A DNA stretch of 17,445 nt from Promethearchaeota archaeon (GCA_048939245.1 JBHLPR010000048.1:1-17445), one strand, 5' to 3'; positions 1 through 5,570 are shown, numbered from the stretch's first letter. Made by a program: numbers and translations. The notes: generated by a model from the letters alone, not told the origin.

Positions 1-991
1 CGTTTTGTATCTGCGACAATGCCTGATTGGGCTTCAAGGATTTGTGTACTCTCCTGCAGTGCAACAGCAAGCGCCACTAATTCTCCTTTCAAAGTCATAA
101 GGGCTACCAAATCACCTGGCCTAATATCATCATGAAGCTTCAAGACACCCGTCACCGCAAGATTTGCACCATGGCAGATTGCATCAATCGCGGTATCTCG
201 AATAACTATCTGCGGTAGATGCTGAACCCCCTCCTCTAATGGACGGATATATAGACGAAGCATTCGATCATTCTGTTCTTCCTTCCAAAAGTGGTAGGCA
301 TCAATTACATCATGGAGTGTAGCTAAAGTAGTATCCTCTTTGAAAGGCCCCGTACGCGTTCGACGCAGCTCTGCCATATGAGCCCCGCCTCCAAGAACCT
401 CACCAAGATCGAAGACTAATTTCCGTACATAGGTGCCAGCCTGACAGCCTACCCGAAAGAGAACATTCTGTTCGTCGATTTCAAGAATATCGAGATAGTA
501 GATTTTTCGAGTACGCACCCGGCGTTTTACCGAGGACCGTACTGGAGGGCGTTGATAAATGGTCCCGACAAATTCCGCAGTGGCAGCATGAATTTTCTTA
601 GGTGTTTCTTGTTGGTGTAGTCGCATGATACAGACGTATTCTTTTCCTGATGTCAAAAGGGCATTAGCAATTTTTGTGGCATTCCCGAGCATGACCGGCA
701 GGACACCTGTCACTTTAGGATCCAGCGTCCCAGAATGTCCTGCCCGGTCCAGCTTTAGAATTCGCTTTACCCAAGATACTACTTCATGGCTGGTCGGTCC
801 GGGGGGCTTTTCCGGGTTTGAAAAAGGCTGAACGCCCCTTAAACCAAACTATCCAGATTGATGATTCCATCCTGAAATAATTCGGGGATGGATCGTTCTT
901 TAGGGACTCGACCATAAGCCGGATTCGTGGTATCCTCGGCGCGAATTATCCATTTCCGCTGCTTATCGGCAGGTAACTGCGACTTTGTCAG
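1..991 (-). CDS. cbf5: H/ACA RNA-guided pseudouridine synthase Cbf5 (TruB family with PUA domain). Two exons (991-851 and 809-<1); the 3' end runs off the window.
   Basis: Manual translation. Exon 1: (L/M)TKSQLPADKQRKWIIRAEDTTNPAYGRVPKERSIPELFQDGIINLD. Exon 2: KPPGPTSHEVVSWVKRILKLDRAGHSGTLDPKVTGVLP...KEYVCIMRLH...IYQRPPVRSSVKRR...CQAGTYVRKL...HMAELRRTRTGPF...DTAIDAICHGANL...TLKGELVAL, open to the window edge. GAGGAGG Shine-Dalgarno (SD) at 1007-1001 precedes CTG at 991. The gene is absent from the ORF track. Confidence 0.95.
810..850 (-). other. 41-nt archaeal bulge-helix-bulge (BHB-type) intron in cbf5 pre-mRNA
   Basis: Minus-strand sequence: CTGG AT|A GTTTG GTTT AAGGGGC GTTCA GCCTTTT T CAAAC CCGG AA|A AG. 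The central helix is CUGG/CCGG, the 3-nt bulges are AUA and AAA, and the intron stem is GUUUG/CAAAC with an inner 7-bp hairpin. Cutting after the second nucleotide of each bulge joins GAT to AAG in frame. The unspliced RNA has an in-frame TAA at 841-839. Confidence 0.88.
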
Positions 992-1039
992 ATCTGAAGT
1001 CCTCCTCAGTTCCTTAAATAGGAGTGATTATTACTTCTA

Positions 1040-4901: not shown

Positions 4902-5570
4902 TCAGGTCTTTGCTTTTCCTTTTGTAGCTGTCGCTCGTTTCGGTTTTTTCTTTGCCTTCGATGCAGTTTTTTTCTTCGTAGTGGTCTTTTTCTTTGTAAC
5001 CTTTTTCGTGGGTTTAGCTTTGGCAGATGTTTTTCGTTTCGTTTTCGTTTTAGGAGCCCGTTTTGGTTTGCTTTTAGGAGCAGCTTTGGGTGCCTCTTTC
5101 AATGAAGGCGCAAGGTGTTTGGTTGGCTCCTGAACCGTGCCTTTAATTTTTCCTCCAGCCGCTTTAATTTTCTCCGCAGCGCGGTGGGTGAAAAGGGGAG
5201 CTGAAATTGTGATGGGCACGGAAATCTGTCCTGTCCCGAGCACCTTATCATAACCATGTGCAGCTAAATCAATCGTGAGCGGTGTGCCCTTTGCAGGAGC
5301 TTGACCCTCTGTAAATCGTGGAAGGTTCCGTGCGATGTCACCTACATTAATTGTGGCATGGTCTTGCCGGAGTTTGCTATGGCGATGAAACCCGTGTTTT
5401 CCGAACCGCTCGGGATCGTGAGCCGTGACATAGGTCCAATCATGTTTTTTGCCACCGGTTTTACCTTTACCCCCGCGTTGACCACCTTTGCGGTGTTGAC
5501 CAATTCGGCCATACCCGTGGGTACGACCGCCGCGCAGGCGACGAACCCGTTTATCTTTGCGTACTGACAT
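4902..5570 (-). CDS. rpl15: 50S ribosomal protein L15 (uL15) with a Lys/Ala/Thr-rich C-terminal tail of about 80 aa
   Basis: RRLRGGRTHGYG..HRKGGQRGGKG, FGKHGF, INVG, GYDKVLGTG, AAEKIKAAGG. Start probably ATG at 5570 (5576 also possible). Confidence 0.95.
   Translation of the reverse strand: MSVRKDKRVRRLRGGRTHGYGRIGQHRKGGQRGGKGKTGGKKHDWTYVTAHDPERFGKHGFHRHSKLRQDHATINVGDIARNLPRFTEGQAPAKGTPLTIDLAAHGYDKVLGTGQISVPITISAPLFTHRAAEKIKAAGGKIKGTVQEPTKHLAPSLKEAPKAAPKSKPKRAPKTKTKRKTSAKAKPTKKVTKKKTTTKKKTASKAKKKPKRATATKGKAKT

What the first reader, a model, noticed from the sequence alone, without database searches (positions are those of the whole stretch)
810..850. mRNA intron of tRNA-splicing (BHB) type in cbf5, located in motif I rather than at the catalytic Asp
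Seen: a 41-nt insert breaks INLD^KPPGPTSHE, adds a TAA and shifts the frame. It folds as a 4-bp helix (CUGG/CCGG) flanked by two 3-nt bulges (AUA, AAA), with intron stem GUUUG/CAAAC and hairpin AAGGGGC-GUUCA-GCCUUUU. The canonical endonuclease cut positions independently give the exact in-frame junction. The exon-side helix is only about one pair (U-A), so the motif is a relaxed BHB/BHL type. Known: cbf5 is the classic case of an archaeal protein-gene intron in Sulfolobales and Desulfurococcales, as I recall next to the catalytic GTLD Asp codon. That region is uninterrupted here, and this intron lies 29 codons upstream of it. Inference: an independent intron gain in the same gene in another lineage, possibly Asgard, suggesting selection for coupling Cbf5 expression to EndA/RtcB splicing. 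Automated annotation would call this a frameshifted pseudogene.
Basis: partly seen in the sequence, partly recalled or inferred. Interest (0 to 1): 0.85.

Follow-up and report, generated by a model that had tools for sequence, protein, structure and literature searches.

The report
tRNA-type intron splitting Asgard cbf5
The only gene found for the RNA-modifying enzyme Cbf5 in this Asgard (Hermodarchaeota-type) archaeon is broken by a 41-base insert shaped like a tRNA intron, at a different site from the one archaeal case in print, so its messenger RNA very probably has to be cut and rejoined by the tRNA-splicing enzymes.

Summary
On the minus strand, 41 nt (850..810) separate ...INLD from KPPGPTSH... 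of cbf5, add an in-frame TAA and shift the frame.

The insert is conserved:
- All 14 genomes of the genus that hold the gene have it at exactly this site (40-43 nt), as do 4 further metagenome sequences.
- It is absent from the sister genus, and no insert at this site turned up in the other Asgard genomes I could read.
- Every copy either shifts the frame or carries in-frame stops, while both exons are under purifying selection.

The RNA shape is a relaxed bulge-helix-bulge (HBh' type). The 4-bp helix H is paired in 18 of 18 sequences. Intron helix h' has three covarying pairs. There is no exon helix h. The standard cut rule gives the exact in-frame junction.

The genome encodes a two-subunit EndA with the loop lysine linked to relaxed substrates, and RtcB.

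The known crenarchaeal cbf5 intron lies in the catalytic Asp codon, which is intact here. That classical site is occupied in three other Asgard families.

The claim that selection couples Cbf5 to splicing has no support.

This scan has already reported the same intron in other genomes of the genus. I found no paper on it.

The parts
1001..1005 (-). Shine-Dalgarno-like GGAGG, 9 nt upstream of the probable start codon of cbf5
   Evidence: Sequence. GAGGAGG or GTGAGG stands at the same place in relatives.
989..991 (-). Probable CTG start codon of cbf5. No ATG, GTG or TTG lies in frame between the upstream stop (1030-1028) and the conserved LPADK segment.
   Evidence: In relatives the homologous codon is ATG or GTG (L008-L016). 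It is CTG in five genomes, this one included.
851..991 (-). cbf5 exon 1 (47 codons, ends INLD)
   Evidence: DKCLD domain, E 7.5e-8. 72-89% identical across the genus. Median dN/dS 0.12.
853..856 (-). Exon strand of central helix H (CUGG = Leu codon CUG plus the first base of the Asp codon)
   Evidence: Pairs with 815-812. Invariant in 18 of 18 intron-bearing sequences, while the neighbouring third codon positions vary.
850..852 (-). 5' bulge AU|A. The predicted cut lies between 851 and 850.
   Evidence: Geometry. The middle base varies U/C among relatives.
810..850 (-). 41-nt BHB-type (HBh') intron
   Evidence: Present at this site (40-43 nt) in 14 of 14 genus genomes that hold the gene and in 4 more metagenome sequences.
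845..849 (-). Intron helix h', 5' strand (GUUUG)
   Evidence: Pairs with 820-816. 94% of cells paired, and 3 of 5 pairs covary (U:A to C:G).
822..840 (-). Inner hairpin AAGGGGC-GUUCA-GCCUUUU
   Evidence: 93% of cells paired in 12 sequences, 3 pairs with changes on both sides. RNAalifold predicts it.
816..820 (-). Intron helix h', 3' strand (CAAAC)
812..815 (-). Intron strand of central helix H (CCGG)
   Evidence: Relatives have CCAG, CCGG or CUAG, and all of these pair with CUGG. 100% of cells paired.
809..811 (-). 3' bulge AA|A. The predicted cut lies between 810 and 809. No exon helix follows, so this side is really a single-stranded stretch.
   Evidence: invariant AAA, and exon helix h of only 1 pair.
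3..809 (-). cbf5 exon 2 (KPPGPTSHE..., 269 codons; it runs off the contig end, so the last codons of the gene (about 20, judged from full-length relatives) are missing)
   Evidence: TruB_N, TruB_C_2 and PUA domains. Pyrococcus Cbf5 2aus, E 5e-108. Median dN/dS 0.05.
720..722 (-). Catalytic Asp codon GAT (GTLDP), the site of the classical cbf5 intron. Uninterrupted here.
   Evidence: Sequence. Position of the classical intron from PMC2738675.

Best explanation
The 41 nt at 850..810 (minus strand) are an archaeal tRNA-type intron inside the cbf5 coding sequence.

Proposed mechanism:
1. In the pre-mRNA, exon bases CUGG (Leu codon plus the first base of the Asp codon) pair with CCGG near the 3' end of the intron and form the 4-bp helix H.
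2. The 5' splice site lies in a 3-nt bulge (AU|A) closed by intron helix h' (GUUUG/CAAAC) and an inner hairpin.
3. The 3' splice site (AA|A) follows H with no exon helix behind it. This is the relaxed HBh' form.
4. The host's two-subunit splicing endonuclease (catalytic alpha plus a beta subunit lacking the catalytic His) cuts both sites.
5. RtcB joins the exons to give ...AAT CTG GAT|AAG CCC..., which restores motif I (INLDKPPGPTSH). The intron is probably released as a 41-nt circle.

Without splicing, only a short peptide of about 50 residues can be made.

The intron was most likely gained once, in the ancestor of this Hermodarchaeota genus and a related metagenome lineage, after the split from the intron-less sister genus. 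It is separate from the classical cbf5 intron in the catalytic Asp codon.

Shown: the anatomy, the conservation, the covariation, and the presence of the enzymes. Inferred: the cleavage, the ligation and the circle.
For: 1. Borders. Exon 1 and exon 2 match Cbf5 up to and from the D|K junction.

2. Conservation.
- Insert of 40-43 nt at the identical site in G000, G001-G012 and G014. That is 14 of 14 genus genomes holding the gene.
- Also in 4 further distinct metagenome sequences.
- None in the 4 genomes of the sister genus.
- None among the other 144 archaeal cbf5 loci fetched and compared.

3. It cannot be read through. Lengths 40, 41 and 43 shift the frame, and all 42-nt copies carry in-frame stops. 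Meanwhile the exons have no stops, with median dN/dS of 0.12 and 0.05.

4. Structure.
- H is paired in 100% of cells, and the intron strand varies only by pair-keeping transitions.
- h' is 94% paired with 3 covarying pairs.
- Sliding the 3' partners by 1-3 columns drops pairing to 55% or less.
- RNAalifold finds H, the bulge, h' and the hairpin on its own.

5. Exon constraint. The Leu codon inside H is CUG in 18 of 18 sequences, although third positions next to it vary and median dS is above 1. The intron-less sister genus uses AUC, CUC, AUA or GUG there.

6. Cut rule. Cutting after the 2nd bulge base gives the in-frame junction here. It also gives G|AY in 5 of 5 classical-site Asgard introns, which matches the published position (PMC2738675).

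7. Chance. 0.05% of shuffled inserts show the motif in the exact register.

8. Enzymes.
- Two EndA paralogues.
- The 186-aa one is closest to the Aeropyrum catalytic subunit 3p1z_B (E 2.6e-44). It keeps Tyr/His/Lys and aligns K41 with the loop Lys44.
- The 199-aa one has lost the catalytic His.
- PMC5829648 reports that only such enzymes, together with the epsilon2 type, cut HBh'/hBH motifs, and that Asgard archaea carry this type.
- RtcB is present.

9. Single copy. No second cbf5 in the assembly.
Against: - No RNA evidence.
- The exon helix h is missing (1 pair), so this is not a strict BHB.
- The window's own sequence does not fold into the BHB as its minimum-energy structure: z-score 0.26, and the constrained BHB fold lies 4 kcal/mol above the minimum. 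Only 8 of 18 relatives give all nine pairs unconstrained.
- The sequences are close kin, so covariation counts overstate independence.
- The loose motif alone is frequent.
- The MAG is 88% complete, so a second, intact cbf5 cannot be fully excluded.
Confidence: 0.85

Rival explanations
1. cbf5 is a decaying pseudogene, and the 41 nt are a disabling insertion.
For: The insert shifts the frame and adds a stop. Gene finders would call two fragments. The start codon is also non-canonical.
Against: - Same insert at the same site in 14 species-level genomes and 4 more metagenome sequences.
- Exons free of stops, with dN/dS of 0.05-0.12.
- No other cbf5 in the genome.
- Compensatory changes inside the insert.
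Confidence: 0.02
2. The ribosome skips the 41 nt (translational bypassing, as in phage T4 gene 60), or another recoding event restores the frame. No RNA splicing takes place.
For: A stop codon lies close behind the break and a hairpin sits inside the gap. This superficially resembles a bypass element.
Against: - No matching take-off and landing codons: GAU before the gap, GAA/AAG after it.
- Gap length varies from 40 to 43 nt.
- The conserved pairing is between exon CUGG and the 3' end of the insert, with 3-nt bulges. That is the EndA substrate shape and is not needed for bypassing.
- The same genomes are rich in tRNA introns and carry the broad-specificity EndA.
Confidence: 0.03
3. The gene is expressed as two separate polypeptides (a 47-residue N-terminal piece and the rest), or only from an internal start, and the insert is just a spacer.
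For: An internal GTG ORF exists (713..3).
Against: - That ORF starts after the catalytic Asp, so it lacks both motif I and the Asp.
- No start codon or ribosome-binding site stands at 809.
- The break falls in the middle of the conserved DKPPGPTSH motif.
- The spacer reading does not explain the BHB pairing or the frozen CUG codon.
Confidence: 0.03
4. Assembly or binning artefact: the 41 nt are not in the real genome.
For: The source is a fragmented MAG (122 contigs).
Against: Independent assemblies from many studies carry homologous, diverged copies at the same site.
Confidence: 0.01

Closest known systems
Classical cbf5 pre-mRNA intron of Crenarchaeota (Aeropyrum, Sulfolobales, Desulfurococcales; Watanabe 2002 as cited in Yokobori 2009, PMC2738675)
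   Same: Same gene. Same kind of short, ORF-less insert (published range 16-44 bp). Exon-intron borders of BHB type. A host with a two-subunit EndA. The insert breaks an essential motif, so it must be removed.
   Different: - Site: motif I (D|K), 29 codons upstream of the catalytic Asp codon that the classical intron splits. That codon is intact here.
- Lineage: Asgard (Hermodarchaeota-type) rather than Thermoprotei.
- Motif: HBh' without an exon helix. The classical site can form a strict BHB using the exon helix GGGA/UCCC, as seen in the Asgard examples.
- Splicing has been shown experimentally for the crenarchaeal intron, not for this one.
Non-canonical (HBh'/hBH/BHL) introns of archaeal pre-tRNAs cut by (alpha-beta)2 EndA with the L1 (Crenarchaea-specific) loop (PMC5829648, PMC3241643)
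   Same: Same predicted substrate shape: a 4-bp H, 3-nt bulges, and one flanking helix missing. Same predicted enzymes. The host alpha subunit keeps the loop lysine.
   Different: The substrate is an mRNA with no tRNA body around it. The exon half of H is built from codons (CUG G).
Classical-site cbf5 inserts in other Asgard families
   Same: Same phylum, same gene, same kind of insert (29-41 nt). The same cut rule gives an in-frame junction.
   Different: They sit in the catalytic Asp codon (G|AY), as in Crenarchaeota, and mostly have a 4-5 bp exon helix. I found no paper describing them. None of these genomes has the D|K insert.
HAC1/XBP1 mRNA splicing in eukaryotes (Ire1 endonuclease plus a tRNA ligase; from my own knowledge)
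   Same: An mRNA cut by a protein endonuclease at stem-loop sites and rejoined by a tRNA-type ligase (RtcB in metazoa). The unspliced message gives a different or truncated product.
   Different: Different endonuclease family and recognition motif. The eukaryotic case is regulated by stress. Nothing here shows regulation.

Membership tests
Archaeal BHB-type (EndA-dependent) intron | Central 4-bp helix H formed by one exon strand and one intron strand | tested here: met
   CUGG/CCGG. 4 of 4 pairs here and 100% of cells in 18 sequences.
Archaeal BHB-type (EndA-dependent) intron | Two 3-nt bulges on opposite strands, whose cut positions yield the precise exon junction | tested here: met
   AU|A and AA|A give CTG GAT|AAG, in frame. 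The same rule reproduces G|AY in 5 classical-site introns. Note that the 3' bulge is not closed by an exon helix.
Archaeal BHB-type (EndA-dependent) intron | Flanking intron helix h' | tested here: met
   GUUUG/CAAAC. 94% paired, with 3 covarying pairs.
Archaeal BHB-type (EndA-dependent) intron | Flanking exon helix h (needed for the strict hBHBh' form) | tested here: not met
   Only one U:A pair, and it is lost in relatives that have C there. The motif is therefore the relaxed HBh' form, which is itself a recognised class (PMC5829648).
Archaeal BHB-type (EndA-dependent) intron | Host endonuclease able to cut relaxed motifs: (alpha-beta)2 type with the L1 loop lysine | tested here: met
   Two paralogues. 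Alpha keeps Tyr/His/Lys and K41 aligns with Aeropyrum K44. Beta lacks the catalytic His. Assembly into a heterotetramer is inferred.
Archaeal BHB-type (EndA-dependent) intron | RNA ligase RtcB present | tested here: met
   PF01139 match at E 3e-169 on contig C53.
Archaeal BHB-type (EndA-dependent) intron | Spliced transcript and excised (circular) intron observed | not testable with these tools
Classical crenarchaeal cbf5 intron | Lies between the 1st and 2nd letters of the catalytic Asp codon | tested here: not met
   GAT at 722-720 is uninterrupted, and the insert lies 29 codons upstream.
Classical crenarchaeal cbf5 intron | Host gene is cbf5 (archaeal dyskerin homologue) | tested here: met
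   DKCLD, TruB_N, TruB_C_2 and PUA domains. Pyrococcus Cbf5 at E 5e-108.
Translational bypass element (T4 gene 60 type) | Matching take-off and landing codons flanking the gap | tested here: not met
   GAU versus GAA/AAG, with gap length varying 40-43 nt.
Group I / group II intron or intein | Ribozyme-sized RNA or an in-frame protein-splicing domain | tested here: not met
   41 nt with a stop and a frameshift. No Rfam match. A true intein does occur elsewhere in cbf5 of two relatives.

The most novel reading that the evidence does not exclude
cbf5 is not a random victim. BHB introns have entered it at least twice (motif I here; the catalytic Asp codon in Crenarchaeota and three other Asgard families). 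This could be because splicing of its mRNA works as a switch that ties production of the tRNA/rRNA pseudouridine synthase to the capacity of the EndA/RtcB tRNA-splicing system, an archaeal counterpart of HAC1/XBP1-type mRNA splicing. A related possibility is that the classical-site intron predates the split of the TACK and Asgard lineages, which would make it a very old mRNA intron.
Probability: 0.1. Interest if true: 0.85.

Novelty: new member of a known kind. Interest (0 to 1): 0.55.

Why it matters
Splicing of an archaeal coding sequence by the tRNA-splicing enzymes is documented in print essentially for one gene at one site: cbf5 at the catalytic Asp codon, in Crenarchaeota.

- A second, separately placed intron in the same gene, in the archaeal group closest to eukaryotes, shows that protein-endonuclease mRNA splicing is neither a crenarchaeal oddity nor bound to one site.
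- Conservation across a whole genus, with compensatory changes and a frozen exon codon, shows that the coding sequence itself is under selection to stay spliceable.
- On the practical side, annotation pipelines will call this essential gene a frameshifted pseudogene or two fragments in every genome of the genus. That distorts completeness and gene-content estimates for Asgard MAGs.
- It gives a compact natural substrate of about 75 nt for testing how Asgard EndA handles a motif without a tRNA body.

Tried and rejected
I did not try another route.
- Single-sequence folding of 795-870 gave a different minimum-energy fold (z-score 0.26). It is not informative on its own. The enforced-constraint energies are unreliable for rows with non-canonical pairs.
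- Donor search. blastn-short of the intron against the whole assembly found only chance words of 11-19 nt. No tRNA-intron or other copy that could be its source.
- Small-RNA function. No Rfam match. By eye, no C/D boxes, and no ACA box conserved across the alignment.
- Other D|K-site introns in the phylum. Five genomes with two matches in the phylum scan turned out to be contig-end fragments or duplicate contigs, not splits. The phylum scan lists only its best 150 rows. Absence elsewhere therefore rests on those rows and on the 144 other loci.
- Order of events. The tree places all intron-bearing rows in one clade, but weakly (77/54). The alternative that unites the two named genera is not rejected (p-AU 0.13). 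One gain is favoured, but gain plus loss is not excluded.
- Naming the three Asgard families with the classical-site intron. I could only infer that f12 is probably Atabeyarchaeia, from a closed genome of 2,808,651 bp compared with 2.81 Mbp in PMC11291895.
- Literature. No paper in the searchable library holds cbf5, intron and Asgard together. The 2026 preprint on Asgard tRNA introns and the Atabeyarchaeia paper do not mention cbf5.

Full report
**What is there**

The window is contig C44 of an 88%-complete MAG (2.52 Mb, 122 contigs). Its left end carries, on the minus strand, the tail of the usual archaeal ribosomal-protein cluster. In order this is secY, an AAA_17 kinase-like gene, an EMC3/TMCO1-like gene, a cytidylate kinase, an 88-aa ORF, then cbf5.

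cbf5 reads ...PELFQDGIINLD up to base 851 and KPPGPTSHEVVSWVK... from base 809. The 41 nt between them (850..810) bring an in-frame TAA and shift the frame.
- Exon 1 hits the DKCLD domain. Exon 2 hits TruB_N, TruB_C_2 and PUA.
- Exon 2 aligns without a gap to Pyrococcus Cbf5 from K53, the Lys of motif I (E 5e-108).
- Exon 2 runs off the contig end.

**Whose genome**

Same-genus species representatives are MAGs titled Candidatus Hermodarchaeota or Promethearchaeota. The host is therefore an Asgard archaeon.

**Conservation**
- Every genome of the genus in which cbf5 is assembled has an insert of 40-43 nt at exactly the D|K junction. That is G000, G001-G012 and G014, 14 of 14. G013 lacks the gene in its assembly.
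- A metagenome scan added four more distinct sequences. Two of them, L122 and L123, come from a more distant lineage.
- The four genomes of the sister genus have no insert.
- None of the other 144 archaeal cbf5 loci fetched and compared has one at this site.
- Inserts of 40, 41 and 43 nt shift the frame, and all 42-nt inserts carry in-frame stops. Both exons are stop-free, with median dN/dS of 0.12 and 0.05.
- The assembly holds no second cbf5.

A pseudogene, an assembly error and read-through are thus excluded for practical purposes.

**Structure**

In an alignment of 18 distinct sequences (A2):
- Helix H (exon CUGG with intron CCAG, CCGG or CUAG) is paired in 100% of cells.
- Intron helix h' is paired in 94%. 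Three of its five pairs change on both sides (U:A to C:G, with U:G or C:A intermediates).
- Sliding the 3' partners by 1-3 columns drops pairing to 11-55%.
- RNAalifold predicts H, the 3-nt bulge, h' and the inner hairpin without being told. The hairpin also covaries.

A further sign of selection lies in the exon. The Leu codon that forms three of the four H bases is CUG in 18 of 18 sequences. Meanwhile the third positions of the flanking Asn and Asp codons vary, and median dS is above 1. In the intron-less sister genus the same residue is encoded by AUC, CUC, AUA or GUG.

There is no exon helix h next to the 3' bulge (one pair at most). The motif is therefore the relaxed HBh' form.

The standard geometry cuts after the second base of each bulge. 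I derived this rule from the canonical 37/38 tRNA case, from my own knowledge.
- Here it gives CTG GAT|AAG.
- It also reproduces the published G|AY junction in five classical-site introns (PMC2738675).
- Only 0.05% of shuffled inserts show H plus a 5-bp h' in this register.

Caveats:
- The loose motif is common when any length is allowed.
- The window's own sequence prefers another fold, in which the intron pairs with the C-rich start of exon 2.
- The sequences are kin.

**Enzymes**

The genome has two EndA paralogues.
- The 186-aa protein is closest to the catalytic subunit of the Aeropyrum heterotetramer (3p1z_B, E 2.6e-44). It keeps the Tyr/His/Lys triad. It aligns through the Crenarchaea-specific (L1) loop, with K41 opposite K44.
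- The 199-aa protein has lost the catalytic His.
[quoted passage not shown] That paper also reports that Asgard archaea carry the (alpha-beta)2 type with L1.
- RtcB is present.
- ARAGORN finds only 22 tRNA genes, 13 of them with introns. This fits a genome in which many tRNA genes are heavily interrupted.

**Relation to the known case**

[quoted passage not shown] Here that codon (722-720) is intact and the insert lies 29 codons upstream.

Three other Asgard families carry inserts of 29-41 nt exactly at the classical site. This holds in 8 of 8 genomes checked. There, H is C[A/U]CU with [G/A]G[U/A/G]G. The exon helix GGGA/UCCC is supplied by the Gly and Pro codons of GTLDP, so most of these are strict BHB motifs. 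cbf5 has therefore been hit at two sites within Asgard archaea. The classical site looks pre-adapted by its coding sequence. The motif-I site depends on a broad-specificity enzyme.

**History**

On a Cbf5 tree the intron-bearing rows form one clade, sister to the intron-less genus, but with weak support (77/54). The alternative grouping is not rejected (p-AU 0.13). One gain is the simplest reading.

**What is not shown**

Nothing supports the idea that the intron exists to couple Cbf5 to the splicing machinery. dnaG in the same genome is broken by a similar small insert, and earlier notes of this scan list more such genes. That argues for general spread of these introns.

**Novelty**

I found no paper that mentions a cbf5 intron in Asgard archaea. 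This scan has already reported the same intron in several other genomes of the genus, so this window adds another member rather than a first sighting.

Noticed in passing
window 989-991 (minus strand), with GGAGG at 1001-1005: cbf5 has no ATG, GTG or TTG start in frame. The codon homologous to the ATG or GTG start of relatives is CTG here and in four other genus members, 9 nt behind a strong Shine-Dalgarno-like site. This is probably a rare CTG start.
   Followed up: partly
L027:1560-1680, L030:1450-1540, L111:465-560, L112:440-560, L113:920-1010 (minus): Three other Asgard families carry a 29-41 nt BHB insert in the catalytic Asp codon of cbf5 (G|AY). The genomes are G024, G034, G128; G029, G039, G041; G037, G312. 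This is the same site as the classical crenarchaeal intron. Most have a 4-5 bp exon helix made of the Gly and Pro codons of GTLDP. I found no paper describing this.
   Followed up: partly
L114:129-2591 (minus; G006); also G011:C9 and G295:C74: In two members of the genus, cbf5 carries an intein of about 530 residues with a LAGLIDADG homing endonuclease, in addition to the RNA intron. It lies between TruB_N and TruB_C_2 (Intein_splicing E 3.6e-14, LAGLIDADG_3 E 2.4e-18). That gene would need both RNA splicing and protein splicing. A distant Asgard genome (G295) shows a similar split near residue 130.
   Followed up: partly
own genome, contig C76, about 5066-5095: dnaG is interrupted after GQTEGL by a roughly 28-nt insert with stops, before (L/I)GEDLDLRELQ. 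I confirmed only the interruption.
   Followed up: partly
own genome (whole assembly): ARAGORN finds only 22 tRNA genes, 13 of them with introns, in an 88%-complete genome. Many tRNA genes are probably hidden by non-canonical or multiple introns.
   Followed up: no
L150, L152, L158, L160, L161, L163, L164 (18 nt); L171, L174 (39 nt); L185, L186, L187, L195, L196 (21-33 nt): Metagenome cbf5 loci of unknown lineage (55-61% identical) have in-frame inserts at or next to the catalytic Asp. They are possibly classical-site introns whose length is a multiple of three.
   Followed up: no
window 780-860 (minus strand): In this genome the start of exon 2 is unusually C-rich (AAG CCC CCC GG). It can pair with the G-rich arm of the intron hairpin, giving a fold 4 kcal/mol below the BHB fold. 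Relatives have CCT CCA/CCT here and lack this competitor.
   Followed up: partly
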